IMG/VR virus record: IMGVR_UViG_3300031997_000007
Location: 7,958-71,957 of that record
From: a virus
Direction: 5' to 3' (one strand)
Length of the DNA: 64,000 nt
Shown here: piece after piece, positions 2,823 to 42,050 of the stretch
Layout: each line of letters begins with the position of its first letter
Position numbering within the stretch: the stretch's first letter is position 1
Position numbers and translations under genes: made by a program
Notes under the pieces: model-generated
Told to the model about the DNA's origin: nothing
Seen by the model: the letters and a program-made list of their open reading frames with translations, nothing else
Database searches by the model: none

Positions 2823-3275
2823 TTACTTTTTCTTTGCAGTTTTAGTTTTTGCAATCACACTTTCAGCAACTTTTTTGGCGTCGAAGTTTTCATCTTCAAA
2901 ATCATCTTCATCATCTTCATCATGATCTTCATCATCTATGTCGTCTTCATCATGATCTTCATCATCTATGTCGTCTTCATCATGATCTTCATCATCTATG
3001 TCATCTTCATCATGATCTTCATCATCTATGTCGTCTTCATCATGATCTTCATCGTCTATGTCATCTTCATCATGATCTTCATCACGGGCTTCATCTTCAA
3101 AATCATCATCTGAGTCTTCATCCTGACCACGATCATTTTCAATTTTGTTGACTTCCATTTCTTCCATAATTGAACGGAACTTATCGGTAGCATACGAATG
3201 GAATGCTACTTCTGCTGCAGCGTCATCTTCATTGATAGTTGCATCAAGCATTTCTTTTAATTTTTCTTTTGACAT
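2823..3275 (-). CDS. Acidic prohead core/scaffold protein (gp67-like)
   Basis: Lies between portal and gp21; very acidic; GGAG RBS. Confidence 0.65.
   Translation of the reverse strand: MSKEKLKEMLDATINEDDAAAEVAFHSYATDKFRSIMEEMEVNKIENDRGQDEDSDDDFEDEARDEDHDEDDIDDEDHDEDDIDDEDHDEDDIDDEDHDEDDIDDEDHDEDDIDDEDHDEDDEDDFEDENFDAKKVAESVIAKTKTAKKK
2911..3084. repeat. 30-bp coding tandem repeat, about 5.8 copies (DEDHDEDDID)
   Basis: TCRTCTTCATCATGATCTTCATCRTCTATG repeated head to tail without spacers. Confidence 0.95.
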
Positions 3276-3377: not shown

Positions 3378-6300
3378 TTATGTGGGAGGAGGCGGCGCTC
3401 CAGGTCCTCCGGGTGTTACCCCTCCAGGTGGTGCTGCTCCTGCTGCTCCACCAACAGTACCTACTGTACCAATCTCACCAGGTTCCCCTTCTGTTCCAAG
3501 TTCACCTTCTGCTCCTGGTTCTCCTAATCCCATTCCTCCCATACCACCACCCATTCCTCCCATACCACCACCCATTCCACCCATACCTTCTGCAGGTGCA
3601 CCGTAGATTTGTTGTAATGATTTATCAGCATCTGGATCATAACCTTTTTCTTGTTTTAATAATTGCTCATTAGTAATAATCTCGTCTTCTGTTAATTGAG
3701 CATATCGTGATAATATAAAACGTTTTGATAAGTATGGTACAGATTCAGCTTGACTGAGTGTGTTAAGTAATGTTGTATCAACTTCAGCTTGTTGATAATG
3801 TTCATAATTAGACGGACTTGGTAGTTTTATCTTAAATAATGTATTGTCAATGTTTATGTTACTTGCAAATAAAAATGTTTTAAATGCTTTATCTAATTCA
3901 ATTTCAATGTATACCTGCAATCTTTCAACAAATTTGGCAAATTGTTGTTCTTCAACATATGCAGCTCCAACTTTACCATCATTAAACATAGCTGAGTTAA
4001 CACCTGTTTTCATCCAAGATATTGGAACTCGCAATCCACGAAGCACTTTATCCATAAAATAATCTAAGTCAGACATCTCACCTAATGATTGACCACCTGG
4101 GAGTACTTCTACTTTTGATCCTTTTCCGTCTGATCTTTGAGCGAGGAAAACATCCTCTAACTGACTGTTTTTTATGAAGATTCCTGCATCAATTGCAAAT
4201 GTATGATAGTTATGGTACACTTCATTTTGATCAATTGTAAGAGTACCAACATCCATTGTTTCATCAAGATATTCAATAGCGATGATTTTATGATTATATT
4301 GAGTGATACCAGTAAGCATTCCATTCCATGAATCATACCCGTAATGCTGGCCAATTTTATTCATTAAAACTGCATCAGGTAATTTAAGTTTTGTTTTTGG
4401 ACTTATTGTTCGATACCATTCAATAAATAATTGCAATATATTACTGTTATTTCTAATATAAGGTAATAATTCATTACAACATGGTGTTATATTTACAATC
4501 AATTGTTTAATATAATTAAACGAACTATCATGATTGTTAAATAGTTTAACCTTTTCTTGAATAATTTTATTTCTTAATGTTTTAAAATTATCATATCCGT
4601 GTAATTTAATTAATTTGTGGAAACCCGAATGTGTTATATGAGATACATCAATTTTATAATTAAATAACACACCATCAACTTTTTTATATTGATTGATGCT
4701 AGCATAATAATTCATAAATTCAACGTTATTGTTTAACGTTAACATAAATTGTTTAATTGATATTGTTGGATTATTGTGTAGTATTTTAACACAATAATTT
4801 AAACATTTCTCATCAAATATAATTAATTGATTAACTGTAGGTAGTTTATTATCAACTAATCGTTGAATACATTGTTGTTTTTCTTCTTCATTAAGCTCTA
4901 ACCATCTAGCTTTACCTATATCACTTAATTTTTTAATAAATTGAGCTCTATATTCATCATCAGTATTTAATAATAATCTATGATTTTCTATCCCAGCAAT
5001 CCGATTAGGATTTAACAATTCATTTGCATGAAACAAAATATGATCTTTTGAATTCATTCGCATTAAATTAGAAGGGCTATTATTATACCTATTAATATCT
5101 CTATGATGAATTGTATCTTTTTTGCTATTTAAAAATTTAGAATCATACACAAATGTTTCAATTAATTGATTTTCACTAAAAAACTTGTTAACCATTCTAT
5201 GTACAAACTGCCAATCTTGTTTGTTAGTATCATACGTTTGAGTATACGTATATTTTCCTAATTTTTCTAATCTCAAATTAAAAGGAAATAGTGAATCATT
5301 AATATCTAAATTTTCAGCATTAACAAACCCTTTACCTTGTACCGGTATTTTATGATCTGCAGTACAAATCAAACTTTCATTGTTATCAAACGTAATCTTT
5401 ATAACTTTTGAATTCTTTCTTGTTATCCCAGCCCATGATATCAATCCAGGAACTTGTTCTCCAGTTTCAGGATTAACAGAATACCCCCATAATTCTTTAC
5501 CTGATTGATATTCATTGATAATATCAAATAATGTCAACACTCTACCATCTAATAGTGGAATTCTTGTATCTAACGATATACATTGTGGATTATACACAGC
5601 ATCTACACTATTACCACCGTTTTGGTTATTTGAAGGGATTTTCTTTTGTCTTATTTCATTTTTAATAGTTTCTAGATATGCTTTAACACGATTCGGTTGC
5701 ATTTTACCCACATCTATATAGAATACACGACGTTCAGGTGCACGTTGAATGCGATATATTACAATAGCATCTTCAAGTAATTCTTTTTGCTTGTGGGTTC
5801 TATAAACAGTTCTAAGAGCTGAATCACCAAATGGTGCTGTCTCAGACATATCATCGTTGATTGAGAACACAGCCATATGTTCAATTGGAATAATTTCTGT
5901 AGTATATGCTTGACTACCAACAGCCATTGACCCTGTTCCATTATAAGCAGAGCTATTGCTATTAGGTACTTTTGAATCCATTCTAACTTGATAGGCTAAT
6001 ACTTTGGTAACATCTTGAGCATCAACAACTGCGCCAATTACATTAGATGCGGGAATCCATTCCCATTTTTTATATGATGAATGTATTTTAAAGAAACAAT
6101 CACCATATTTTATCATATTTCTAGCTATTTTAAATAGTCTATTTTCAGTAAACCCATGTAGAATTGACCAATGTCTTAGTGCTGATCTTAATGTAAGTAC
6201 TATTGTATCTTCGACCTCTTGCCCATCATCAATCTGCATACTAATATTAAGAACCATATCAGTTTTAGTATTCCGACTAGTCATTTCTTCAGCTATAATA

Positions 6301-6578: not shown

Positions 6579-9425
6579 TTAACCCGCTTTAATATATGCT
6601 ACTGTATTTCCACCACTTTTATTCATTATGTCAAATAAACTATCAGGTGTTGTAGCAGCTTTTTCTACTTTTACATCAGTATACCAATCAGTTGTATTTT
6701 TATCAATACTGCGTAAATAATTGTTAATAGTATTTGTTGCAGTTACCATATTGCTAATATTATCGTTAAACGTAGTAGTCAATATATCTAAACGATCGAT
6801 CATTTGATTAACTACATCAACTGGAGGAGTTGCTAATGTCGTAACATTTGCTGTAAGATCATTTAATGTGTTTGATAACGGGTGACTTTCTATTTCCTTA
6901 TTTACTATTTTCGATATCGGTTTATCTTCTACTTCATTAGTTAACGTTGGTGATGATTGTTTTAAAGATTTTTCCTTTTTATACTTCTCTATATCACTAT
7001 CCCACGTAACTAATGTTTCAAACCATCCACCAGTTCCAGTTACAACACGTTCTAATCTTTTTTGTTGTTGTTCTTCTACTCCTTTATATAACGAAAATGC
7101 TGCAATTGCACCAGCAACTATTGGAATAAGACCACCGAACACTAATCCTAAACCACCAGCAGCTGTACCTAAACTTGCAAGAATCGGTGCAACACCACCT
7201 GCACCAATTGCACTCCCGAGTACACTAAATAGAGCTGGCATAGCCCCTCCAATAATACCAGATGCTGCACCAGTAAAAGCACCGATTATTAATGAAGGTA
7301 TTATCCCTGTTTGTGATGTATCTAGTGCATCTGTAAAATTTTTAACTGCAATAGCAGCTTTACCTGCTTGTATAGATAAATCAGTTTTATCATGTTCTTC
7401 AGCTTTTGCAAGATCTGCTAATTTCTTTTCCTGTATAGCTTTTTCTCTATTAGCTGGAGTATTTCCACCAACCATGTTCGTTGCTGCTTTTATTATACCT
7501 GCTTTATACGCTTGCGTTTTCGGTAGTTCTTCTTCTTTTTTAGCTACTGAAGCTGCTGAACCTGCACTCATTGGTAAAGCTTGTTCTATGGCCGCTACTA
7601 TAGTGTTATACTGTCCTCCTTTGGTATTATCAGCTCGTACCTCCGCCTCAGCGTTTACAAGAATATCTAGTATGTCGCTGAAATCTTGTTTCTCAGCAGC
7701 ACTTTTATTACTTTTGCTTTCTAAAGATCCAGCTCTAGCGGCTATATCTCCTTGTAAGTCTTTATTATTCGGTAAAAAATTACTTAACTGTTGAAGTTTT
7801 GCTTGTAAACCAGCACCGGACATCAATGCAGATGGTATTGTTCTTTTTGTATCAGCGGCAAAACCAGCCGCAAATGTTTTAATTGCCTCTTTACTATAAC
7901 CTAATTGTGCAGAATGCTCCGCAAACGCTTTTAAATCAAGCAGATACGCAATACGTTCTTTATTCTTCAGACCTGCTAATTTATAAGAAATATTACTATC
8001 TAGCAACATTGACTCATATAACTCAAGACTAGCTGGAGCTGTCAATGCAGTAGTTTTATTCATCACATCTGCCCATTTTGCAGTGTCTGATAAAGTTTTA
8101 CTAAACTCAGAAAGTCCTTGTGCACCACCACTTGCATTACGCTCAAGAGTGGCCATTCGCGCTGCCATCTCTAATCCTGCTTTTCGATCACCACCCATTA
8201 ATTTTGTAAATTCATCGGTATGATCTTTCATCAATTTATCTACACTTTCTTGACCTCCTTCTATGCTGCGGTATAGTGCTTTATTTTGTGACATTACTTT
8301 TAAATAAGCTTCTTGACCTACACCAATTTGTATTAATGCTAAATCATGTAACTCAGTACCAGATTTCATCCATTCTGAAGCTTCTTCCATAAACAACGGC
8401 ATTGCTTTTTTACCAGCTTCCCAGAACATTTTAGCTGATGCGACAGCAATTGTTCCTGTAAGTCCCGCCATTGTACCACTCATACCACCAGCTGTTAACC
8501 TACCAGCAATAGCGTTTCTTATAGTATTACCAGCTTCACCAAATGTACCTTCAAGTTGTTTAAGCATAACATTTTTAAAAGAACCACCAACATCTTTTAT
8601 GCTTTTTGCAGTACCAACTACACCTTTAGTAAATCCTTTTAATTTCTGCTCTGATTCACCTAACGCATTTCTAACACCTTTATTAGACATTCCTTGAAAA
8701 TACTCGTTAACAACTCCAATTTCTTTAGCATTTAAAGTTACACCACTTGTGTATTTTTCTAACGCAGCAGCAAACTCATTTGCTTTTTCAGAACTCTTCG
8801 CATACCCTGCGAAATAACTTGGATCACCTAATTCTTTACTTAATGTGTGTAAATTTGCTAACAGGTTAAGTTGAGCTGCCCCCATTTTCCCATTATTTTC
8901 TTTAAATGATTTAATAAATGCTTGTTGTGCTATTACATAATCATCAAACTTTAAAGTATCCGCGTAATTTTCAATTTTTAAAGAAGCGCCAGCTATCGAT
9001 TTTATTTGATTTTTTAAAGCTTCAGGGTATAGTTTATCAAGTTCACTCCATGTAGTAAATGTTTTTGATACTTGCTCATCGAGCATACTTTTCGCGTGTT
9101 GGTATGAAGATGAAATATCTTTAACGAATGAAGAGTGTAAACTACCGGCGGTTTTTGTACCGTCTATTACTTCTGATAAAACATCATGAAATTGATCGAA
9201 AGACTTACCTGCAAGTTTAAGTTTTTTATTTAACGCTGCTAATTCATACGCAGAACTATCACCAGCTTTTTGTACACTAGCTGCGACTTTAGTTTGAGCA
9301 GTTGCTGAAGTTTGACCTGCATTAGATAAATCACCTAACGTACGTGATAAACTACCACCGGCGCTTGAAATTTGTTGAACGAATGCTTGTAATTGTGCTA
9401 AGAATGCTGGATCTAAGGCTGCCAT
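6579..9425 (-). CDS. Tape-measure-like tail length protein
   Basis: Ala/Gly-rich helical 948 aa with a C-proximal hydrophobic Gly-rich segment; near the gp26-like gene. Confidence 0.7.
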   Translation of the reverse strand: MAALDPAFLAQLQAFVQQISSAGGSLSRTLGDLSNAGQTSATAQTKVAASVQKAGDSSAYELAALNKKLKLAGKSFDQFHDVLSEVIDGTKTAGSLHSSFVKDISSSYQHAKSMLDEQVSKTFTTWSELDKLYPEALKNQIKSIAGASLKIENYADTLKFDDYVIAQQAFIKSFKENNGKMGAAQLNLLANLHTLSKELGDPSYFAGYAKSSEKANEFAAALEKYTSGVTLNAKEIGVVNEYFQGMSNKGVRNALGESEQKLKGFTKGVVGTAKSIKDVGGSFKNVMLKQLEGTFGEAGNTIRNAIAGRLTAGGMSGTMAGLTGTIAVASAKMFWEAGKKAMPLFMEEASEWMKSGTELHDLALIQIGVGQEAYLKVMSQNKALYRSIEGGQESVDKLMKDHTDEFTKLMGGDRKAGLEMAARMATLERNASGGAQGLSEFSKTLSDTAKWADVMNKTTALTAPASLELYESMLLDSNISYKLAGLKNKERIAYLLDLKAFAEHSAQLGYSKEAIKTFAAGFAADTKRTIPSALMSGAGLQAKLQQLSNFLPNNKDLQGDIAARAGSLESKSNKSAAEKQDFSDILDILVNAEAEVRADNTKGGQYNTIVAAIEQALPMSAGSAASVAKKEEELPKTQAYKAGIIKAATNMVGGNTPANREKAIQEKKLADLAKAEEHDKTDLSIQAGKAAIAVKNFTDALDTSQTGIIPSLIIGAFTGAASGIIGGAMPALFSVLGSAIGAGGVAPILASLGTAAGGLGLVFGGLIPIVAGAIAAFSLYKGVEEQQQKRLERVVTGTGGWFETLVTWDSDIEKYKKEKSLKQSSPTLTNEVEDKPISKIVNKEIESHPLSNTLNDLTANVTTLATPPVDVVNQMIDRLDILTTTFNDNISNMVTATNTINNYLRSIDKNTTDWYTDVKVEKAATTPDSLFDIMNKSGGNTVAYIKAG

Positions 9426-29275: not shown

Positions 29276-31168
29276 ATGCCTTTATATCGTGACCCAATTG
29301 AGGGGTTAGTACAATACGTTAATGATATTAAACCATACCACACTAAATTAATTGATGTTGTAGTTACGTATACATATGAAGAGCGTATAAATGTTACTAT
29401 ATTAGATAATTTATTTACAACTGTAACATTTAATATGGATTACTCACGTGAGCCGTGTTTCTTTGGTTATGATACTGATAGTTATGATTATACAGCATAT
29501 AATATTCCGGATTATGGATATGCAATAAATCACGCTAATACATATAATACTGATTGTTTATTAACAGGGTGCGAACGATATTATAAAACTACTACAATTA
29601 CACCAATTATTGTAGATGATACCATATTACTACCGTTTGAATATCTATATAATATAGAAACATTATATGTATACATAAATGGTGTATTAACTAACACAAT
29701 ATTTCAACAAGTTGAACCGGTTACATATAATGATACTCAACTGGATGATTGTGATAGATATAATACAAATATAATTAAATGTTTAAGTATACTACCGATA
29801 GGTACAAGAATACTAATAACAACACATATTATTGGTGTAGACAATGAGTGCTGGTCTGATTTAGCATCATCGGGTTTTGAATCCCATCAATTTGATGAAC
29901 ATCAAATTGATTTAACAGATCCATTATTTGACAGATGGCGTTATGGATATAATAGTTATGCCCTTGATGCTACGACATACGATATGCCTGATCCAGATGA
30001 TACAAATCGTAATTGTAAATGCCCACCGTTTATACCGTATGCGTCACCAACGTCTGTACTTCCAACTATTTTAGAAGATATTAAATTTATAGATCTAATA
30101 ATATTTACAGATATTATTAACGTTACTGTATTTGATTGGTCAGATAATTGGGCTAATGGGTTTGATTTAACTCCACTTAATAATTATAGATTTGATACAA
30201 CATCATTATGGGATGTTATTGATAATATTGGATACAACTTTGGACCAACAGGACGACCTAACTTAATTAAAACTAATTTTATAATATATGATGAGCAGAA
30301 AAATGATATTTCTATTAATATAACTGATTCACATACTCAAATTGAAATTATAGATAATGACAATGAGAATTTAGGTTATGATATTTTACCTATAGATGTA
30401 TCAGAGTTTGATTCAAGTAGCGCTGTAGAAGTAATAGCAGCTGCAACTATAACAGATGTATTTACGGTAATAGAAATATTAGAATTTAAAGATATGATTG
30501 GAGTCAATGTTGTTGATCCATCATGTTGGGTAAGTGCACAGGGGCTAAATTGGGTACGAGATAATTTCTGGTATGATATGTTACCTAATCTTGCAGGAGG
30601 AAGTAATACTACTACCGAATTAGTTGATGATAGAGTTAATTGGGTACAACTTCCAACGGTAGGTGGTTTTGAATGTGATAGTCTTGGATTTGATCTTAAT
30701 GGTTTTGACAATGATCAAATATGGTCGTGCATACCATGTAGTTTAGTTGGTGGATTTGATGATAGTATGGGACTTGATGGATATTATGACGGATCAACTT
30801 ATGAACCGTATGAAAATATTCCAACTATGTTAGGACTAGATCAGGAACCGTTATGGAATAGTTATCCAGTTTTACCGTATAAAAACGATGGTACAGACTT
30901 CTATCATGGCTGTACACCAACAGAATTAACAGATTCTATAATAACAATAATTCGTACACCTACATCTGTACTAATGTCGTATATTTATTATCAAACAGAT
31001 CCATCTACAACCTGGATTATAACTCACAATTTATCTGTATTCCCTATTATTCGAGTGTTTACATTGGATGGTGTTGAAATACACCCTGCTAGTATTACAC
31101 ATATATCTTATAATACAGCGGTTATAGAGTTTAGTGAACCGACTGTTGGTATTATCCGATTCGTTTAG
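29276..31168 (+). CDS. Virion structural protein with G[FY]DxxxFD repeats and C-terminal WxIxHNL module
   Basis: YVNDIKPYHTKL N-terminus; repeats visible in the translation. Confidence 0.7.
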   Translation: MPLYRDPIEGLVQYVNDIKPYHTKLIDVVVTYTYEERINVTILDNLFTTVTFNMDYSREPCFFGYDTDSYDYTAYNIPDYGYAINHANTYNTDCLLTGCERYYKTTTITPIIVDDTILLPFEYLYNIETLYVYINGVLTNTIFQQVEPVTYNDTQLDDCDRYNTNIIKCLSILPIGTRILITTHIIGVDNECWSDLASSGFESHQFDEHQIDLTDPLFDRWRYGYNSYALDATTYDMPDPDDTNRNCKCPPFIPYASPTSVLPTILEDIKFIDLIIFTDIINVTVFDWSDNWANGFDLTPLNNYRFDTTSLWDVIDNIGYNFGPTGRPNLIKTNFIIYDEQKNDISINITDSHTQIEIIDNDNENLGYDILPIDVSEFDSSSAVEVIAAATITDVFTVIEILEFKDMIGVNVVDPSCWVSAQGLNWVRDNFWYDMLPNLAGGSNTTTELVDDRVNWVQLPTVGGFECDSLGFDLNGFDNDQIWSCIPCSLVGGFDDSMGLDGYYDGSTYEPYENIPTMLGLDQEPLWNSYPVLPYKNDGTDFYHGCTPTELTDSIITIIRTPTSVLMSYIYYQTDPSTTWIITHNLSVFPIIRVFTLDGVEIHPASITHISYNTAVIEFSEPTVGIIRFV

Positions 31169-36692: not shown

Positions 36693-37811
36693 ATGTTTGA
36701 AAATACAATACCAATACCAGTACAAGTTCATGGATATGTACATATAGAAGACGATTTAGGTAATGTTTATTTAGATAAGAGCAACGCTATTCATCCAGCT
36801 AATATGGGTCGTGTTTTTGCAAGAGCTCTAGCTAATGAAAGCAATTATTGGATTAACCGTATAGCTTTTGGCAATGGTGGGACTGTTGTAGATGCGGCAT
36901 ATAATATAACATATAAAACACCTAATGATGGATTACCTCCTGATGCTGCTGGATGGAAATCGTGTCTTTATAATGAAACATATTCTGAATATATCAATGA
37001 AAGTAGCATATTAATAAGCTCTGGAGTAGGAGCTGTACCTTCAAGTGATCCACTAGCTATATTAAATAATATGTCAGGCCCGGGAGTAGTAAGTGTTGAT
37101 CAGGGATTAATATCACAAGTTGTTATAACATGTGTTTTAAATCCAAATGAACCGTTGAGTCAATATCCAACTGATATTGTTGGAAATGCTCTTAATAATG
37201 TAACTGAATATACCGAAACACCTTTTACGTTTGATGAAATTGGATTATTTACAGCGGGTACTACAGTTATTGCAACTCCCGGTACACAAAGTGTTAATGT
37301 AAGTATAAAAACAGCAACTGACCCGACTGGATTACTTCCAGATACCACATACATATTTGATATTAATGTTAGTGGAACTATACAACATATTACTATTCAT
37401 ACACCATTAACAGGATCTGGTGTTGGCGGACAAATTCTATATAGTGATTTAATTATATTATTAAATGTTACAATAGCTGATGCTACTGTTTCTATTAATG
37501 ATGGGACTAATATGACATACGGATATTTAAAGTTTACTAATGACGATGTTGGAGTTAATGCTAATATTACTTTAATAACCCCTGCTAGTCCTCCTGATAA
37601 TTGGTTATTCGATGGATTAAATAGCTTTATAGGATTTCTTGCACCTGTCAATGGAACAGATGGTGGTGTTGATAACGACTTAAATAATCCTACACATGAA
37701 GCCCAACGCATGTTAACTCATCTAATTTTTAGCCCGGTACTTAAAGCTGCAAATAGAACATTTATTATTAAATACACATTAACAATATCAGTTGCACGCT
37801 CTGAACAATAA
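36693..37811 (+). CDS. Virion structural protein (tail/baseplate associated)
   Basis: IAFGNGG, FDEIGLF and RMLTHLIFSPVLKAANRTFIIKYTL motifs. Confidence 0.7.
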   Translation: MFENTIPIPVQVHGYVHIEDDLGNVYLDKSNAIHPANMGRVFARALANESNYWINRIAFGNGGTVVDAAYNITYKTPNDGLPPDAAGWKSCLYNETYSEYINESSILISSGVGAVPSSDPLAILNNMSGPGVVSVDQGLISQVVITCVLNPNEPLSQYPTDIVGNALNNVTEYTETPFTFDEIGLFTAGTTVIATPGTQSVNVSIKTATDPTGLLPDTTYIFDINVSGTIQHITIHTPLTGSGVGGQILYSDLIILLNVTIADATVSINDGTNMTYGYLKFTNDDVGVNANITLITPASPPDNWLFDGLNSFIGFLAPVNGTDGGVDNDLNNPTHEAQRMLTHLIFSPVLKAANRTFIIKYTLTISVARSEQ

Positions 37812-37848: not shown

Positions 37849-38058
37849 ATGAAGGGACCAGGACAGTCGAATAGTTTTTCAAGACGTGCTAAAGCAATGG
37901 ATGGTAATAGCATACCAAATCAGTATGTTAATAAGAATTATGGTGTTAAACGTAAAGCGAAAGCCCATAAATATAGCATTATTAGTACAGGAACTGGTAA
38001 ATATTATGGCTCAAAAGCTATAATGGAAACTTTTAAAGAATTTCTTATACGCACATAA
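37849..38058 (+). CDS. Hypothetical basic protein
   Basis: ORF track. Confidence 0.5.
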   Translation: MKGPGQSNSFSRRAKAMDGNSIPNQYVNKNYGVKRKAKAHKYSIISTGTGKYYGSKAIMETFKEFLIRT

Positions 38059-38089
38059 TAAATATTTTCGCATAAATAAAAAAGAATAG

Positions 38090-38117
38090 TTGCATTAAAG
38101 AATAAATATTATATAAT
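38090..38117 (+). promoter_or_regulatory. Sigma70-type promoter TTGCAT-N16-TATAAT for the micro-ORF/tRNA region
   Basis: Near-consensus hexamers, A-rich upstream tract, AAGGAG RBS downstream. Confidence 0.6.
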
Positions 38118-38142
38118 AGAACTATAGTTCAAGGAGATGACA

Positions 38143-38205
38143 ATGAAACGAGATATAATATGGATTGCACCAGTTTTTAAAGGTCCAGGAGTTTACTGGG
38201 GTTGA
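38143..38205 (+). CDS. Micro-ORF 1, MKRDIIWIAPVFKGPGVYWG
   Basis: AAGGAG RBS; manual translation. Confidence 0.6.
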   Translation: MKRDIIWIAPVFKGPGVYWG

Positions 38206-38249
38206 TTGATAATTGGCCAACTACTGGATTTATTGATCCAGATTGGTGA
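38202..38249 (+). CDS. Micro-ORF 2, MIDNWPTTGFIDPDW (TTG start)
   Basis: TTGA overlap with the ORF1 stop; W/P composition. Confidence 0.4.
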   Translation: MIDNWPTTGFIDPDW

Positions 38250-38253
38250 TAAT

Positions 38254-38322
38254 ATGAAAGATATAATGCCTTTATTACCTTATACCGTTGTTAAACCTGG
38301 TTGGGCTCCAACTGATGTATAA
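38254..38322 (+). CDS. Micro-ORF 3, MKDIMPLLPYTVVKPGWAPTDV
   Basis: aatATGAAA start context; P/W-rich. Confidence 0.5.
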   Translation: MKDIMPLLPYTVVKPGWAPTDV

Positions 38323-38341
38323 GTGGCCTGTTGTAATATGA
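38315..38341 (+). CDS. Micro-ORF 4, MYKWPVVI
   Basis: Overlaps the ORF3 stop and the ORF5 start (ATGA). Confidence 0.3.
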   Translation: MYKWPVVI

Positions 38342-38445
38342 AAGACTTAAGACCTATTCATTGGCCAGAACTCATTTTATGGATACTACCATGTGGTATC
38401 ACATGTATTATACCAGGTTTTGGTATAATTGTTCCCGCGATGTGA
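38338..38445 (+). CDS. Micro-ORF 5, MKDLRPIHWPELILWILPCGITCIIPGFGIIVPAM
   Basis: aatATGAAA start; hydrophobic and P/W-rich. Confidence 0.5.
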   Translation: MKDLRPIHWPELILWILPCGITCIIPGFGIIVPAM

Positions 38446-38450
38446 ATAAT

Positions 38451-38588
38451 ATGAAACAAAAAGTTATTCTGCAAAAAGCGAAAAGAATTGGTACTATAAA
38501 ATGGCCAGATGATGTTCCTTGGGATATTATACTTCCATGGATTGCAGGTCCTAGACCAGCTCCATGGATTACATTCCCAGGACCATAA
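38451..38588 (+). CDS. Micro-ORF 6, MKQKVILQKAKRIGTIKWPDDVPWDIILPWIAGPRPAPWITFPGP
   Basis: aatATGAAA start; 4 Trp and 8 Pro; C-terminal part of ORF-track call 38361..38588. Confidence 0.55.
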   Translation: MKQKVILQKAKRIGTIKWPDDVPWDIILPWIAGPRPAPWITFPGP

Positions 38589-38589
38589 A

Positions 38590-38628
38590 ATGAATAAAAA
38601 TAAACAGTGGCCTATTTGGCCTAAATAA
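38590..38628 (+). CDS. Micro-ORF 7, MNKNKQWPIWPK
   Basis: Starts 1 nt after the ORF6 stop; WP twice. Confidence 0.45.
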   Translation: MNKNKQWPIWPK

Positions 38629-38672
38629 CATATAATATAAACAAGTTAAACAAATTTAAAAAGAGACAAGAA

Positions 38673-38735
38673 ATGAAAACTATCGTAATGCCCATGATTA
38701 TTGTGAAACATCCGGATGCGCCCATTATTGTGTAG
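38673..38735 (+). CDS. Putative attenuator leader peptide MKTIVMPMIIVKHPDAPIIV
   Basis: Overlaps the 5' arm of a long hairpin; composition matches the downstream tRNAs. Confidence 0.7.
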   Translation: MKTIVMPMIIVKHPDAPIIV

Positions 38736-38783
38736 ATAGTATATCGTTTTTTAAATCTACCAATAATGGGCCTGAAAGTTTCA
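38704..38783 (+). promoter_or_regulatory. Putative antiterminator hairpin
   Basis: GCCCATTATTG(720-730)/CAATAATGGGC(761-771), GTAGAT/ATCTAC and TGAAAC(704-709)/GTTTCA(778-783), all in 38xxx coordinates. Confidence 0.65.
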
Positions 38784-38802
38784 AACTTATCAGGTTTTTT
38801 TT
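38771..38802 (+). terminator. Intrinsic terminator (attenuator) upstream of the tRNA cluster
   Basis: CCTGA-AAGTT-tca-AACTT-a-TCAGG followed by T8. Confidence 0.8.
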
Positions 38803-38885
38803 ATGGTTGTTAAAACACAGAAATAAAATGTAAAAGAACACAGTAATTAAATGTAAGAAAACAAGTGAATAAAAGTGATTATCGG

Positions 38886-38959
38886 GGAGAATGTAGCTTA
38901 ATTGGTAAAGCCCTCGCCTGTGAAGTGAGTAGTTGGGAGATCGTAGCTCCTCATTCTCC
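38886..38959 (+). tRNA. tRNA-His(GUG) with G-1, atypical T-loop, no encoded CCA
   Basis: G-GAGAATG/CATTCTC-C acceptor, GCTT/AAGC D stem, CTCGC-CTGTGAA-GTGAG anticodon arm. Confidence 0.85.
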
Positions 38960-39856
38960 CCGATATACATTTTCATATTCATCTACCATGAAAACTAAGC
39001 TTTCATAAGTGATTGAGGATTTTGTTTTTTTAATATTATTATTTGTTTGTGACATTATTTCACAATTTAAAGGATGTGAAATATAATAAGGATCATAATT
39101 ATGTTTAACTGCATCTTTTACTGATATTTTATGATCTCGACTAAGCCCTGTAGGATTAAGTGTTTTATTTCCAAACTTACCACCATTGGAAAACCAACCT
39201 ACTGATTTAATTAAATTTAAATCAAATATATTAGGATAGTCATATACATTAAATTTAAATCTATATATTTGACGCATACCATCAAAATATAGTGATGCAC
39301 AGTTATAGCAATATTTTTGTTTATTTTTGATTAAAGTTACATTAGAACAATGAGTACAACAACATTTATATAATTTACTATATGGAATATTGTTTTTATC
39401 AGCTTCTGTAATTGCAATTTTTATTGATATTTTAATAAATTGAGTATTCGTAATAATACGTTCTTTACGTTCTTTACTTTTATGAGTATTTGAAATTTTA
39501 GTTTTTGTCGCAGTTGTTAGAATACGACCAGTATTAGTATATGATGCTGAACACGAATTATTACAAAAGTTATTTCTTCGTGATTTATATGGTATTATTG
39601 TAGAGCAGTATTTGCATATTTTAGGATTTAAGTTGTATGTTTGTTTAACTAATATTGCTTTTGTACGAACATAATTCGTACAATCTCGCTTTTTACAATT
39701 TTCTTTATTTTTAATTGTAACATCATCAGTTTGTATAGGATGATTAGGATATTGATTTCGAAAATTAACATATGAAATATTATGTAGTTTTAAATGATTA
39801 TTGGTTATTTTCTTAAATTGTTTAAAACAAATAGGACAAGTAATATATGAGTTCAT
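38951..39856 (-). mobile_element. Free-standing HNH homing endonuclease with Zn-finger modules, antisense within the tRNA cluster
   Basis: CPIC..H..H and CKYC..FCNNSC; C-terminal SRDHKIS...HPLNCEIMSQTNN; late-type GATAAATA at 39887-39894. Confidence 0.8.
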
Positions 39857-39905
39857 AATTATAATATTAAAATAAGTTTAAATATATATTTATCAATATT
39901 ATTGA

Positions 39906-39932
39906 AGGGGTTCGAATCTCTCCAGTCACCCC
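39906..39932 (+). pseudogene. Orphan tRNA 3' fragment (T-arm plus acceptor strand, His-like C73)
   Basis: AGGGG-TTCGAAT-CTCTC-CAGTCAC-CCC with no matching 5' half nearby. Confidence 0.6.
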
Positions 39933-39963
39933 TATAATTATTTTCAACTAAAGAGTATGTAAA

Positions 39964-40152
39964 ATGAATGTACAAGAAGTGATTGATAAATTAATGTTAG
40001 TTAAAGATAAATCAAAACACTTACAAGTTACCATTACTCGATGTGGGCGAAGTTGGTGTTCAACTAATGATATAGATGATATTATTGAAGAAGATACAGT
40101 AGTTGAAGCTACTGGTGGTGAAACAGATCAAGGTGGATTGAGATATTTTTAA
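39964..40152 (+). CDS. Hypothetical protein within the tRNA cluster
   Basis: ORF track. Confidence 0.55.
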   Translation: MNVQEVIDKLMLVKDKSKHLQVTITRCGRSWCSTNDIDDIIEEDTVVEATGGETDQGGLRYF

Positions 40153-40166
40153 ATAGTATTTTTTGT

Positions 40167-40239
40167 AGTGATGTGGCTAAGCCGGTAAAGCACCTCCTTC
40201 ATACGGAGAAAATCGTTGGTTCGAACCCAACCATCACTA
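40167..40239 (+). tRNA. tRNA-Met(CAU) (Met vs Ile2 not resolvable by eye), no CCA
   Basis: AGTGATG/CATCACT, CTCC-TTCATAC-GGAG, GTTGG-TTCGAAC-CCAAC. Confidence 0.85.
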
Positions 40240-40262
40240 CAAAATGTATTTAAACGAAATAC

Positions 40263-40336
40263 AGCTCTATAGTTCAAAGGTAGAACATTACGCTGATAAC
40301 GTAAAGACACAAGATCGATACCTGGTAGAGCTACCA
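40263..40336 (+). tRNA. tRNA-Ile(GAU) with encoded CCA and imperfect T-arm
   Basis: AGCTCTA/TAGAGCT-ACCA, TTACG-CTGATAA-CGTAA. Confidence 0.85.
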
Positions 40337-40357
40337 ATTTTAAAAAGTATACTTAGT

Positions 40358-40431
40358 AGGTACGTCGTTCAGCGGCCTAGAACACCACCCTTTTAAGGTG
40401 GGAATCGTGGGTTCAAATCCCACCGTACCTA
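40358..40431 (+). tRNA. tRNA-Lys(UUU), no CCA
   Basis: AGGTACG/CGTACCT, CCACC-CTTTTAA-GGTGG, GTGGG-TTCAAAT-CCCAC. Confidence 0.88.
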
Positions 40432-40466
40432 CTAAGTGTATTTTAGAAGAGTAAAGTCAACGTTGT

Positions 40467-40539
40467 AGGAGTATAACTCAATTGGTAGAGTGTCGCATTT
40501 ACATTGCGGAAGTTATCGGTTCAATTCCGGTTACTCCTA
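40467..40539 (+). tRNA. tRNA-Val(UAC), no CCA
   Basis: AGGAGTA/TACTCCT, TCGCA-TTTACAT-TGCGG, ATCGG-TTCAATT-CCGGT. Confidence 0.88.
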
Positions 40540-40572
40540 CAATGTTGATTTAAAACAAATAGTAGGTATTGT

Positions 40573-40644
40573 CAGTCTGTAGCCAAGCGGTATGGCGCCA
40601 AATTTGGGGTTTGGAAATCGGGAGTTCGAGCCTCTCCAGACTGA
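40573..40644 (+). tRNA. tRNA-Pro(UGG), no CCA
   Basis: CAGTCTG/CAGACTG-A (C1-G72, A73), CCAAA-TTTGGGG-TTTGG. Confidence 0.88.
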
Positions 40645-40716
40645 CAATACCTATTAAATCAATGAGTTAACATATAAGATAATAAGGAACTAGCAATAAC
40701 CTATAAAATTGAAAAC

Positions 40717-40860
40717 ATGGAGGTTTTTTCTGTTTTTTCTATGAACGGCTTTAATGAAGCATGGGAACGAATTACTACTTTATGTGAGATGGCTGCTTTA
40801 TTAAATAAACCAAAAGAAAAAATTGAAATACCAGCACCTGTAAATCCATTAAAATTTTAG
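40717..40860 (+). CDS. Small hypothetical ORF (47 aa; frame also open from ATA at 40696)
   Basis: MEVFSVFSMNGFNEAWERITTLCEMAALLNKPKEKIEIPAPVNPLKF. Confidence 0.4.
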   Translation: MEVFSVFSMNGFNEAWERITTLCEMAALLNKPKEKIEIPAPVNPLKF

Positions 40861-40873
40861 TTAATTATAATTG

Positions 40874-40902
40874 TTGATTAATTCTACAAAATATTATATA
40901 AT
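40874..40902 (+). promoter_or_regulatory. Sigma70-type promoter TTGATT-N17-TATAAT
   Basis: Near-consensus hexamers with 17-nt spacing. Confidence 0.7.
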
Positions 40903-40932
40903 ATGATTTTATTAATAATTTAGAGGACAACA

Positions 40933-41274
40933 ATGACTATTCATGTAAAAAATATTAAAATTTTAAAAGGATATTTTGATAAAGTTGTGGAAAGAACACA
41001 GTGTCATGCAGGGAATGTTGGTCAAGTAATTTTTCCCTTATTAGGATTTATTGTTAATAAAATGGATGAAAATTCTGATATTCAAGTTAGAGGAAATGAT
41101 GCAACTGGTAACATTCTTTGGATCTTTATAGGTGGTACTAGATATGCGTTTCGTTATGAGCATAGCGATGAAACTATTGAAATTAGAGAAAATAGCTATA
41201 TGGGACCACTTATTGCAAAAGTTGATAATAGTACCACAACTTCAAAACTTGAAACTATATTTGCAAATTTGTAA
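40933..41274 (+). CDS. Integron cassette protein VCH_CASS14-like
   Basis: HAGNV...NILWIFIGGTRYAFRYEH...IEIRE pattern recognised from memory of the family. Confidence 0.65.
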   Translation: MTIHVKNIKILKGYFDKVVERTQCHAGNVGQVIFPLLGFIVNKMDENSDIQVRGNDATGNILWIFIGGTRYAFRYEHSDETIEIRENSYMGPLIAKVDNSTTTSKLETIFANL

Positions 41275-41480
41275 TATATAAAAATATTATATAATTAAAT
41301 TTTATATAAGTGAATAATATATTTTAATATATCATATTCAACTAAATTCATACACAGATGCATTGTTCTTTATTATCTTACGTCCAGTTATACATGCACT
41401 TAGTATAACGCAGCAACACGGTTATCTTCAAAATTACGTATTATTTACTAAATAATATTACAATAATAAGGAGTAAGATA

Positions 41481-42050
41481 ATGCAAACGTATCATTATGC
41501 ACAAGCCAGAGAATTAATTAAAGATGGGGATATTATTTTCTTCAAAAATAAACCAAATATATCTTCAAAACTAATTGAAGCCATAACTGATTCACCGTTT
41601 TCTCATGTGGCTATAGCTTTTTGGGTTGAAGTGGCTTGTAAAAATATACATAAAACAAAACGATTAATGATCGTTGAAGCTACTGGTCATACTAATAATA
41701 GAGATATTGTAAACTTATCAAATGAATGTATTTATGATATGATAGTATTATCTCCACCACTGAAATGGATTGATATTAGTGAAAATGCACTTGATAGAGT
41801 TGGACTAGTACCTTACGGATGGACCGATGGTGCATTAATTGGAATTCAATCTTTAATATATAGAGGATTTGGTAAAAAAATAAATATTGGTGGTGGGCGA
41901 GGTGAATATTGTTCAGAATTTGTTGCTAAAGCTTACAAATTACCAAACACAGAAATAACCCCACACGAATTATATGATACTTTGATATCACAATATAAAT
42001 GCGAGGTTAGATTTGAAATTGTACCACTATCTACCGATATAATTGTTTGA
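41481..42050 (+). CDS. Permuted papain-like amidase (YaeF/YiiX, peptidase C92)
   Basis: DGDIIFF, FSHVAI, YCSEFVAKAY and ITPHEL. Confidence 0.85.
   Translation: MQTYHYAQARELIKDGDIIFFKNKPNISSKLIEAITDSPFSHVAIAFWVEVACKNIHKTKRLMIVEATGHTNNRDIVNLSNECIYDMIVLSPPLKWIDISENALDRVGLVPYGWTDGALIGIQSLIYRGFGKKINIGGGRGEYCSEFVAKAYKLPNTEITPHELYDTLISQYKCEVRFEIVPLSTDIIV

What the first reader, a model, noticed from the sequence alone, without database searches (positions are those of the whole stretch)
38673..40656. Candidate tRNA-depletion sensor: a leader-peptide attenuator whose codons match the phage tRNAs it controls
Seen: the 20-codon ORF MKTIVMPMIIVKHPDAPIIV (38673-38735) has 17 of 20 residues from M, K, I, V, P and H. 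These are exactly the six tRNA isotypes downstream (His-GUG, Met-CAU, Ile-GAU, Lys-UUU, Val-UAC, Pro-UGG). The codons also fit the anticodons: all 5 Ile codons are ATT/ATC and none is ATA, though ATA is common elsewhere in the window; Val is GTA/GTG and Lys is AAA. The ORF's 3' half forms the left arm of a long hairpin (38704-38737 with 38755-38783) that sequesters the 5' arm of an intrinsic terminator (38771-38802, T8) lying about 85 nt before the first tRNA. An internal repeat, GCCCAT(GAT)TATTGTG at 38690 and 38720, offers two pairing registers. Established: this is the logic of ribosome-mediated attenuation (trp, his, ilv and pheST leaders), and host anticodon nucleases such as PrrC and PARIS AriB are countered by phage tRNAs. 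Inference: full translation melts the antiterminator and keeps the tRNAs off, while stalled or absent translation allows read-through, giving an on-demand multi-tRNA rescue switch. Caveats: stalls late in the ORF would themselves block the antiterminator, and the 3' codons are constrained by RNA structure.
Basis: partly seen in the sequence, partly recalled or inferred. Interest (0 to 1): 0.92.

Follow-up and report, generated by a model that had tools for sequence, protein, structure and literature searches.

The report
Leader-peptide attenuator gating phage tRNA genes
A giant phage places a tiny test gene, written in the amino acids its own tRNAs carry, and a transcription stop signal in front of its tRNA genes, so it probably makes those tRNAs mainly when ribosomes read those codons slowly.

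Summary

It came out positive.
- A relative (L001) keeps the same leader in front of an uninterrupted His-Met-Ile-Lys-Val-Pro-Pro array.
- In related giant-phage records I found short ORF plus terminator units ahead of other tRNA arrays, each matching its own array. 7 of 37 candidates reach p<=3e-5, against 0 of 4623 mismatched pairings.
- All 7 contain every isotype of their array.
- Two more occur in the cultured Ralstonia phage RsoM2USA.

The ORF tails carry a partner for the terminator's 5' arm.

Best reading: a multivalent leader-peptide transcription attenuator that gauges decoding of the array's own amino acids. No expression data exist, so mechanism and polarity are inferred.

Weak points:
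- Codon-level matching is not above expectation.
- In this window five of the six tRNAs lie behind a 1.2-kb insertion.
- The link to anticodon nucleases is untested.

This scan had already noted the same class on other DNA. My 8 paper searches found no published account.

The parts
38622..38636 (+). Promoter-like region: an AT-rich hexamer at 38622-38627 (the top 6-mer) followed by a -10-like hexamer at 38631-38636
   Evidence: The hexamer lies within 110 nt upstream of the start codon in 10 of 11 leaders, against 5 of 138 control regions. The 11th (L214) has it once its full ORF is used. The -10-like hexamer is conserved in L001. In this AT-rich window the hexamer occurs 1.83 times per kb, so on its own it is weak here.
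38663..38666 (+). Weak purine-rich ribosome-binding candidate, 7 nt before the start codon
   Evidence: Read. Other genes in the window show a fuller Shine-Dalgarno, for example before 38143. It is weak and was not tested.
38673..38735 (+). Leader ORF, 20 codons plus TAG; 17 of 20 residues belong to the six tRNA isotypes, and all six isotypes are present
   Evidence: The L001 homologue (2410-2466) has 18 codons, 16 of them in the set, and differs by one in-frame 6-nt gap.
38690..38705 (+). Repeat copy A, an alternative partner for the 3' arm at 38761-38771
   Evidence: In L001, A pairs with that arm when a masked ribosome covers copy B.
38704..38715 (+). Region 2: a stretch inside the ORF that pairs with the terminator's 5' arm (38772-38783); it resembles the terminator's 3' arm
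   Evidence: MFE pairs. The block is identical in L001.
38720..38771 (+). Hairpin spanning the stop codon: repeat copy B plus stop (38720-38737) paired with 38755-38771; it brings region 2 next to the terminator's 5' arm
   Evidence: The lower 11 pairs are identical in L001, while the upper stem and loop differ yet still pair.
38772..38802 (+). Intrinsic terminator: bulged 9-pair stem 38772-38793, then T8 at 38795-38802
   Evidence: It is conserved in L001 (2499-2531), with one loop change and a stronger closing pair.
38887..38961 (+). tRNA-His (GUG), the first gene after the terminator
38951..40152 (.). Insertion that splits the array: 301-aa ORF on the minus strand (38951-39856), a tRNA 3' fragment (about 39904-39936) and a 62-aa ORF (39964-40152, +)
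   Evidence: Absent from L001, where His and Met are 27 nt apart. Also absent from a contig of run X13, which joins 38809 to 40217. phrog_23051 with no Pfam hit. A homologue sits beside a tRNA in phage GAP32.
40167..40645 (+). tRNA-Met(CAU), Ile(GAU), Lys(UUU), Val(UAC) and Pro(UGG)
   Evidence: Same order as in L001.

Best explanation
The element is a multivalent leader-peptide transcription attenuator placed ahead of a phage tRNA operon.

Proposed mechanism:
1. Transcription starts at a phage promoter about 45 nt upstream of the leader's start codon.
2. A ribosome translates a 20-codon ORF made almost entirely of the amino acids whose tRNAs lie downstream.
3. If the ribosome moves through quickly, it covers the part of the ORF (38704-38737) that would otherwise hold the terminator's 5' arm. 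The terminator (38772-38802) then forms and transcription stops before the tRNA genes.
4. If the ribosome stalls on the early codons because one of those tRNAs is scarce or uncharged, or if the ORF is not translated, that part of the ORF pairs with the terminator's 5' arm. RNA polymerase then reads through into tRNA-His and, in the uninterrupted ancestral layout, the whole array.

The result would be negative feedback that holds the supply of exactly those tRNAs.

Shown: the anatomy, its conservation, and the leader/array co-variation across phages.
Inferred: translation of the ORF, the alternative folds in vivo, and the polarity.
For: 1. Anatomy in the window.

2. Conservation in L001.
- Of 60 related loci scanned, only L001 carries tRNAs, namely His-Met-Ile-Lys-Val-Pro-Pro.
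- It has the same leader, hairpin and terminator 28 nt before tRNA-His, and its upstream gene is divergent, so the unit has its own start.
- Identity between the window and L001 is 80.5% (107 of 133 columns) for the leader. It is 74.4% for the flanking gene DNA, 65.7% for the 60 nt upstream and 61-72% for the tRNAs.
- The only gap inside the ORF is 6 nt, so it is in frame.

3. Co-variation in related giant-phage records.
- The survey covered 353 tRNAs in 170 clusters. 37 ATG short ORF plus terminator candidates lie ahead of 30 clusters.
- 7 of the 37 match their own downstream array at best-prefix p<=3e-5, against 0 of 4623 mismatched pairings.
- A first, cruder pass gave 3 of 52 clusters at p<=1e-4, against 1 of 2644 mismatched pairings. 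At least 3 such hits arose in 0.05% of 2000 shuffles.
- The arrays differ: Asn/Pro/Ser; Asp/Phe/His/Ile/Lys/Asn/Tyr; Glu/Phe/His/Met/Pro/Thr/Trp; a 12-isotype set; and Ala/Ile/Lys/Asn/Thr/Val.
- One genome (G016) has two leaders, each matching its own array.
- An eighth leader (L214) is a homologue of the L219 leader.

4. Completeness: 7 of 7 leaders contain every isotype of their array. Full coverage occurs in 259 of 2059 mismatched pairs.

5. Shared geometry: the distance from stop codon to terminator is 25-35 nt in all 7.

6. Antiterminator design.
- The ORF tail pairs with the terminator's 5' arm better than shuffled ORFs do. Shuffles as good as the real one: 0 of 500 for L229, L219 and L224, 4 of 500 for L217, 13 of 500 for L221, 6 of 500 for L001 and 26 of 500 for the window.
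- With a masked ribosome on early codons, the 5' arm is already paired upstream in 60-100% of the ensemble. With the ribosome on the tail this falls to 5-50%.

7. Cultured phages: RsoM2USA has two such leaders and XacN1 has one candidate. That is 3 of 141 ATG short ORFs at p<=1e-4, against 0.16 expected.
Against: - No RNA, Term-seq or ribosome data exist, so translation and read-through are unshown.
- The ribosome-binding site in the window is weak.
- The window's terminator stem is weak (-3.9 kcal/mol), and the consensus scan missed it.
- In L001 equilibrium folding gives the terminator at 0.78-0.96 in every ribosome state. Only the kinetic proxy shows a switch.
- In the window and L001, a ribosome masked at the last codons or the stop again allows upstream pairing of the 5' arm (0.65-0.73). 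The simple model therefore needs steric or timing arguments that I could not compute.
- Synonymous codon choice does not favour the array's anticodons: 129 of 151 against 122 expected overall, and 12 of 14 against 9.1 in the window, where 2 CCC codons are unreadable by UGG under strict wobble.
- The CAU tRNA may be an Ile2 rather than a Met tRNA. I did not test this.
- In this window five tRNAs lie 1.2 kb away, across an antisense ORF. Promoter-like sites exist at 39059-39087 (11 of 12 matches) and the hexamer recurs at 39879 and 40150, so those five may no longer depend on the leader.
- Many arrays have no detectable leader: only 7-8 leaders were found for 170 clusters, and none in the second batch of 20 regions.
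Confidence: 0.6

Rival explanations
1. The leader is translated and matched to the array, but it reports general translation status or amino-acid charging rather than abundance of these particular tRNAs. Examples of such states are host shut-off, ribosome damage and starvation. The tRNA operon would then be induced by any slowing of translation.
For: With no ribosome on the ORF, the window's fold is the read-through form (terminator probability 0.03), so any loss of translation would switch it on. A bacterial tRNA array induced by ribosome-targeting antibiotics is on record (PMC8421152, passages read).
Against: A general sensor would not need each leader to contain every isotype of its own array, nor differ between two arrays of one genome.
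Confidence: 0.15
2. The polarity is reversed, or the coupling is of another kind. Efficient translation of the leader would promote tRNA transcription or processing, for example by opening the hairpins or blocking Rho. The array would then be made only when its codons are read well.
For: In the window and L001, masking the ribosome at the last codons restores upstream pairing of the terminator's 5' arm. The XacN1 candidate has no clear intrinsic terminator.
Against: In L229, L224, L217, L221 and L219, a ribosome on the ORF tail removes the antiterminator partner. Positive feedback on a tRNA that is already sufficient has no obvious use.
Confidence: 0.12
3. The unit is a stand-alone small gene or small RNA with its own constitutive terminator. 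The tRNAs would be made from other starts or by constant leakage, and the hairpins would serve stability or processing.
For: The terminator forms at equilibrium in L001 in all states. 5'UTR-derived, prematurely terminated small RNAs just upstream of a phage tRNA have been reported and left unexplained (PMC11512511, passages read).
Against: This does not explain why composition follows the downstream array across non-homologous leaders. It also does not explain why the ORF tails pair with the terminator's 5' arm. In L001 only 28 nt separate the T-run from tRNA-His, and I saw no promoter-like site there (my reading).
Confidence: 0.08
4. A chance ORF shaped by a G+C-rich stem and its repeat, followed by an ordinary terminator.
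For: 20-codon ORFs are common here: 89 ORFs of at least 20 aa in 7 kb. The repeat supplies 9 of the 17 in-set residues. The rare codons CCC and GTG coincide with stem bases.
Against: The ORF is conserved with an in-frame gap in L001. Independent leaders match their own arrays, with 0 of 4623 mismatched pairings as good.
Confidence: 0.03

Closest known systems
Multivalent leader-peptide attenuators of enterobacterial amino-acid operons (ilvGMEDA, ilvBN, thr leaders; also trp, his, leu, pheA). Named from my own knowledge.
   Same: A short translated ORF in the 5' leader is rich in the codons being gauged. It is followed by an intrinsic terminator whose 5' arm can instead pair with part of the ORF. 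Several amino acids are read by one leader.
   Different: Those systems control biosynthetic enzymes and report amino-acid supply. Here the regulated genes are the tRNAs themselves, in a virus, and up to 12-14 isotypes are spelled in one leader. There is no sequence or Rfam relationship.
pheST (pheM leader) attenuation of phenylalanyl-tRNA synthetase. Named from my own knowledge.
   Same: Leader-peptide attenuation applied to a component of the translation apparatus.
   Different: It has one amino acid, and its target is a protein enzyme rather than tRNA genes.
T-box riboswitches
   Same: A leader RNA that gauges the state of a given tRNA and switches a terminator.
   Different: A T-box binds uncharged tRNA directly, without translation. 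No T-box or other Rfam family matches 38000-41500 apart from the tRNAs.
Inducible tRNA array (trn operon) of Anabaena sp. PCC 7120, PMC8421152
   Same: A supernumerary tRNA array that is silent by default and induced 100- to 1000-fold when translation is impaired (passages read).
   Different: It is bacterial. The main text has no occurrence of 'leader', 'attenuat' or 'terminator', so no such mechanism is described there.
5'UTR-derived prematurely terminated small RNAs upstream of phage tRNAs (phage 201phi2-1; PAK_P3), PMC11512511
   Same: Transcripts that end early just upstream of a phage tRNA gene, seen by long-read RNA sequencing (passage read).
   Different: They are reported as small RNAs of unknown role. 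The word 'leader' does not occur in that text. These are different phage groups, and I did not examine their sequences.

Membership tests
Ribosome-mediated (leader-peptide) transcription attenuators | A short ORF with its own start codon in the 5' leader of the regulated unit | tested here: met
   ORF 38673-38735. It is conserved as an ORF in L001 with an in-frame 6-nt gap. The ribosome-binding site is weak.
Ribosome-mediated (leader-peptide) transcription attenuators | Leader enriched in codons cognate to what is regulated | tested here: met
   17 of 20 residues are in the set. Across phages, 7 of 37 candidates reach p<=3e-5 against 0 of 4623 mismatched pairings, and coverage is full in 7 of 7. 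The match is at the amino-acid level only. The codon level is not above expectation.
Ribosome-mediated (leader-peptide) transcription attenuators | An intrinsic terminator between the leader ORF and the regulated genes | tested here: met
   Stem 38772-38793 plus T8. The stem is weak (-3.9 kcal/mol) and the consensus scan did not call it. The equivalent stems are strong in the other leaders (-10.6 to -17.5 kcal/mol).
Ribosome-mediated (leader-peptide) transcription attenuators | A mutually exclusive antiterminator that involves ORF sequence and depends on ribosome position | tested here: inconclusive
   In silico only. It is met in the window: terminator probability is 0.03 when free, at most 0.21 with the ribosome on codons 2-7 and 0.79-0.90 on codons 8-13. 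It is not met at equilibrium in L001. A kinetic proxy supports it in all 7 leaders. The duplex test is significant in 5 of 7 at <=6 of 500 shuffles.
Ribosome-mediated (leader-peptide) transcription attenuators | The leader is translated, and stalling changes read-through | not testable with these tools
   No RNA run holds the stretch, and no ribosome profiling is available.
Rfam leader families (His, Trp, Thr, Leu leaders) and T-box | A match to the curated covariance model | tested here: not met
   The E-value search of 38000-41500 lists 12 matches. The six tRNA genes match the tRNA model, and five weak minus-strand matches (four Plastid-ycf2, one MIR475) lie over tRNA genes. The only match in the leader is a chance-level CRISPR repeat hit (E = 0.88) at 38778-38813.

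The most novel reading that the evidence does not exclude
The leader is an on-demand counter-defence switch. When a host anticodon nuclease or other tRNA-depleting defence removes one of the host tRNAs spelled in the leader (for example tRNA-Lys-UUU), ribosomes stall in the leader. The phage then floods the cell with its own, possibly cleavage-resistant, copies of exactly that set. Each array of a giant phage would be a separately triggered rescue module.
Probability: 0.15. Interest if true: 0.95.

Novelty: new variant of a known kind. Interest (0 to 1): 0.85.

Why it matters
Phage tRNA genes are usually treated as constitutive helpers for codon usage or as decoys against tRNA-cleaving defences. 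How their expression is controlled is largely unknown.

A leader that spells out the content of its own tRNA array would have three consequences:
- Viruses would be measuring decoding capacity codon family by codon family and making tRNAs only on demand.
- It would extend classical attenuation, known for amino-acid operons, to tRNA genes themselves.
- It would give a readable genomic marker for which tRNAs are transcribed together.

It would also make testable the old question of why and when phages need their tRNAs, using simple reporter fusions. The presence of such leaders in a cultured phage (RsoM2USA) means the idea can be tested on real material.

Tried and rejected
Searches for relatives of the leader that found nothing useful:
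- Megablast and blastn of 38300-40700 against phage records. There was no match, or only a 7% match under the 301-aa ORF.
- A single-protein locus search in viral contigs found none.
- An 18-base and a gapped hairpin pattern in viral contigs each gave 0 hits.
- The gapped pattern in genome contigs gave 46 stretches, all in one Leptolyngbya genome. That is a palindromic repeat unrelated to tRNAs.
- A covariance model of the leader (2 sequences) found nothing better than E = 0.03 in 28 related viral records. 22 further loci were not held and so were not searched. By sequence, the window-type leader is therefore known only from the window and L001.

Sequencing runs:
- No RNA holder is listed among the 16 runs, all of them sediment DNA.
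- Laying four runs showed only the window-type leader (X9, identical) and the L001-type leader (X13). There was no third variant.

Negative or weakening results:
- The codon-level match is not above expectation.
- L001 shows no antiterminator at equilibrium.
- The consensus scan did not call the terminator, and promoter-like sites are no more frequent than in shuffles (23 against 20.8).
- The second batch of 20 regions (L234-L253) gave no strong leader.
- RAS14 and Xoo-sp13 gave none at my thresholds.
- The XacN1 candidate lacks a clear terminator.

Points of method:
- An 89% 'mean column identity' from MAFFT overstated conservation. The stricter pairwise figure is 80.5%.
- Alignments A2 and A3 were mis-set (wrong bounds, one base off) and were replaced by A4.
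- I did not use structure prediction, complex prediction or the protein atlas.
- Supplementary files of the papers were not opened. The tRNA table of PMC8504454 is in a supplement and may list tRNAs differently from ARAGORN.
Full report
WHAT IS THERE

The window is 64 kb of a 72-kb, 30.5% G+C viral contig. Its proteins place it among giant myoviruses of the XacN1 / RsoM2USA / GAP32 kind. The 372-aa protein at 36693-37811 is 38.6% identical to a XacN1 protein and has 929 relatives in metagenomes.

At 38673-38735 lies a 20-codon ORF ending in TAG. 17 of its 20 residues are Met, Lys, Ile, Val, Pro or His. ARAGORN finds six tRNA genes in the whole window, for exactly these six isotypes. Those residues are 29.3% of 21,556 codons in the contig's long ORFs, so a naive binomial gives 3.8e-7. 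I do not lean on that number, for two reasons:
- An internal repeat (38690 and 38720) supplies about half of the in-set residues.
- The rare codons it uses (CCC is 4% of Pro codons, GTG 8% of Val) sit in a G+C-rich stem.

STRUCTURE

RNAfold of 38660-38810 gives one long irregular hairpin (-37.2 kcal/mol, z = -3.4, 0 of 200 shuffles as stable). In it:
- the ORF's last five codons and stop (38720-38737) pair with 38755-38771;
- the stretch 38704-38715 inside the ORF pairs with 38772-38783.

The latter stretch is also the 5' arm of a bulged 9-pair stem (38772-38793) followed by T8, 84 nt before tRNA-His. The terminator stem is weak (-3.9 kcal/mol alone), and a consensus scan did not call it. Rfam has nothing for the leader.

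THE ARRAY IS SPLIT HERE

Only tRNA-His follows the terminator. Between His and Met lie three features:
- a 301-aa ORF on the other strand (38951-39856; phrog_23051, no Pfam hit);
- a tRNA 3' fragment;
- a 62-aa ORF.

The relative L001 has His and Met 27 nt apart. A contig of run X13 joins 38809 to 40217 without this stretch. It is therefore an insertion, and whether the five distal tRNAs still depend on the leader is open. A promoter-like site lies at 39059-39087 (11 of 12 matches), and the promoter-like hexamer recurs at 39879 and 40150.

THE CLOSE RELATIVE

I collected 160 loci around homologues of the 372-aa protein and scanned 60 of them for tRNAs. Only L001, whose flanking protein is 74% identical, has any: His-Met-Ile-Lys-Val-Pro-Pro.
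- 150 nt upstream of its tRNA-His is an 18-codon ORF (L001 2410-2466) with 16 of 18 residues in the set. The same hairpin and terminator follow, and the T-run ends 28 nt before the tRNA.
- The gene upstream is on the other strand, so this unit starts on its own.
- The only gap inside the ORF is 6 nt, so it is in frame.
- By my reading, the codon differences are two synonymous changes, several swaps among Met, Ile and Val, one Asp to Glu and one Ala to Met.
- Pairwise identity is 80.5% for the leader, 74.4% for the flanking gene DNA, 65.7% for the 60 nt upstream and 61-72% for the tRNAs. That is a modest excess.

No further variant turned up. A covariance model found none in 28 related records, and four laid runs showed only these two types.

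THE DECISIVE TEST: CO-VARIATION

I located tRNAs in 28 related viral records, fetched 40 tRNA-rich regions from 18 of them and ran one pipeline on these plus the window and L001.
- The input was 353 tRNAs in 170 clusters.
- 39 clusters have a hairpin plus T-run within 350 nt upstream.
- 37 ATG ORFs of 8-60 codons end up to 110 nt before such a terminator, ahead of 30 clusters.

Each peptide was scored by the best-prefix binomial for residues belonging to the tRNA isotypes downstream.
- The scores are bimodal. Seven reach p<=3e-5, and the next best is 8e-3.
- Against the tRNA sets of other clusters, 0 of 4623 pairings reach 3e-5.
- A cruder first pass gave 3 of 52 clusters against 1 of 2644 mismatched pairings. 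At least 3 such hits arose in 0.05% of 2000 shuffles.

The seven leaders are:

| Leader | Coordinates | Downstream array |
|---|---|---|
| window | 38673-38735 | His, Ile, Lys, Met, Pro, Val |
| L001 | 2410-2466 | His, Ile, Lys, Met, Pro, Val |
| L221 | 2990..2877 | Asn, Pro, Ser |
| L224 | 510-608 | Asp, Phe, His, Ile, Lys, Asn, Tyr; first 16 residues after Met all in the set |
| L229 | 5476..5375 | Glu, Phe, His, Met, Pro, Thr, Trp |
| L219 | 1659-1796 | twelve isotypes; 32 of the first 34 residues in the set |
| L217 | 618-695 | Ala, Ile, Lys, Asn, Thr, Val |

Further points:
- L217 and L219 are in one genome, and each matches its own array.
- The eighth-ranked candidate, L214 15531..15400, is a homologue of the L219 leader, and its full ORF also carries the promoter box.
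- Every one of the seven contains all isotypes of its array, against 259 of 2059 mismatched pairs.
- Among ORFs upstream of tRNAs without the terminator geometry, 1 of 384 reaches 1e-4.

SHARED DESIGN

- The distance from stop codon to terminator is 25-35 nt in all seven.
- The in-set codons fill the first part of each ORF. The tail is out of set and carries a stretch complementary to the terminator's 5' arm (my reading).
- That duplex beats shuffled ORFs. Shuffles as good as the real one: 0 of 500 for L229, L219 and L224, 4 of 500 for L217, 13 of 500 for L221, 6 of 500 for L001 and 26 of 500 for the window. These were mononucleotide shuffles.
- An AT-rich hexamer like the T4 late-promoter core (a resemblance I recall, not one I tested) lies within 110 nt upstream in 10 of 11 leaders, against 5 of 138 control regions.

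RIBOSOME-MASK FOLDING

I masked nucleotides from -15 to +12 around each A-site codon. I then asked whether the terminator's 5' arm is already paired upstream before the 3' arm exists.

| Leader | Ribosome on early, in-set codons | Ribosome on the ORF tail |
|---|---|---|
| window | 0.68-0.69 | 0.33-0.43 |
| L001 | 0.74 | 0.05-0.51 |
| L229 | 0.86-1.00 | 0.23-0.30 |
| L224 | 0.99-1.00 | 0.09-0.61 |
| L217 | 0.74-0.99 | 0.33-0.67 |
| L221 | 0.79 | 0.33-0.51 |
| L219 | 0.61-0.68 | 0.32-0.56 |

In the window the equilibrium probability of the terminator is 0.03 when free, at most 0.21 with the ribosome on codons 2-7, and 0.79-0.90 on codons 8-13.

Two results go against a tidy picture:
- In L001 the terminator wins at equilibrium in every state (0.78-0.96).
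- In several leaders a ribosome masked exactly at the stop lets the upstream pairing return. I suspect sterics, which the mask ignores, but I cannot show it.

CODON LEVEL

Under strict wobble, 129 of 151 in-set codons are readable by the downstream tRNAs, against 122 expected from each phage's synonymous usage. In the window the figures are 12 of 14 against 9.1. The match is thus to amino-acid identity, not demonstrably to anticodons.

CULTURED PHAGES

I applied the same scan to the tRNA regions of XacN1, RAS14, Xoo-sp13 and RsoM2USA. This covered 56 clusters and 141 ATG ORFs. Three reach p<=1e-4, against 0.16 expected.
- Two are in RsoM2USA.
  - Record positions 87361..87248: the first 31 residues are all in the 12-isotype set, with a terminator 27 nt after the stop.
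  - Record positions 112124..112047: all nine isotypes are present.
- One weaker candidate is in XacN1 (30428-30469, ahead of Lys-Lys-Tyr). It has no clear terminator.
- Neither RsoM2USA leader is annotated. One lies under a hypothetical CDS on the opposite strand.

WHAT IS KNOWN

Eight full-text searches found no account of leader-peptide control of tRNA genes. From three papers I read only the passages returned by term searches:
- The RsoM2USA paper has no occurrence of leader, terminator or promoter.
- The Anabaena tRNA-array paper reports induction under translational stress, with no occurrence of leader, attenuat- or terminator.
- The 201phi2-1 transcriptome paper reports a prematurely terminated 5'UTR small RNA just upstream of a tRNA, and a similar case in PAK_P3, both uninterpreted.

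After my own analysis I queried this scan's notes. The same class had been noted on other giant, crAss-like, lake and soil phages, with the same conclusion and the same lack of a published precedent. Those are unchecked AI notes. I count them as agreement, not as evidence.

VERDICT

The interpretation as a leader-peptide attenuator matched to its tRNA array is supported by independent comparative evidence. The mechanism is a known kind, ribosome-mediated attenuation, applied to a new class of target, a virus's own tRNA genes, and in highly multivalent form. Translation, polarity and biological trigger remain inferences. The anticodon-nuclease reading is possible but untested.

Noticed in passing
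window 38951-39856 (-), with 39964-40152 (+): A 1.2-kb insertion splits the tRNA array. Its 301-aa ORF (phrog_23051, no Pfam hit) overlaps the last 11 nt of tRNA-His. It has Cys-pair motifs and, by my eye, an HNH-like C-terminal motif, so it looks like a homing endonuclease that targets tRNA genes. Homologues lie beside a tRNA in phage GAP32 and in Lak megaphages. The insertion is absent from L001 and from a contig of run X13.
   Followed up: partly
window 39904-39936: A tRNA 3' fragment (T-arm plus acceptor 3' strand). Its last 13 nt (39924-39936) are identical to the 3' end and flank of L001's tRNA-His (L001 2628-2640); 3 of 300 random window segments share as much. It looks like the remnant of an older tRNA-His displaced by the insertion, which brought a different tRNA-His copy.
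   Followed up: partly
window 40158-40655; L001 2655-3275: Each tRNA gene is flanked by about 8 nt that extend the acceptor stem into a longer duplex, and the spacers are AT-rich. The same holds in L001 (my reading). This may be a processing signal. It is also the subject of another first-reader note (e1-6200291).
   Followed up: no
window 38143-38628: A run of short Trp/Pro-rich reading frames in all three frames sits just upstream of the leader. It is either a frameshifted gene or overlapping micro-ORFs. L001 has unrelated genes at this position.
   Followed up: no
upstream of 11 leaders (window 38622-38627; L001, L214, L217, L219, L221, L224, L229, L258, L265, L267): A shared AT-rich hexamer, resembling the T4 late-promoter core as I recall it, lies 11-101 nt before the leader start codon. 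It occurs in 10 of 11 leaders against 5 of 138 control regions. The full-length L214 leader has it too.
   Followed up: partly
L267, between the leader terminator and the first tRNA (about 7833-8010, minus strand): In RsoM2USA a further small ORF encoding a very basic, Lys/Arg/Gly-rich peptide of about 40 residues lies between the second leader's terminator and its tRNA array (my reading).
   Followed up: no
L161-L206 (one Leptolyngbya genome): The 11-nt arms of the window's hairpin occur as a 39-nt palindromic repeat in at least 46 places of one cyanobacterial genome. It is unrelated to tRNAs and is presumably a dispersed palindromic repeat.
   Followed up: no
L215, L218, L219, L230, L258, L261, L262, L264: Several of these giant phages carry tRNAs with a CUA anticodon, which ARAGORN labels Pyl. 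These are amber-suppressor candidates. The RsoM2USA paper also reports one.
   Followed up: no
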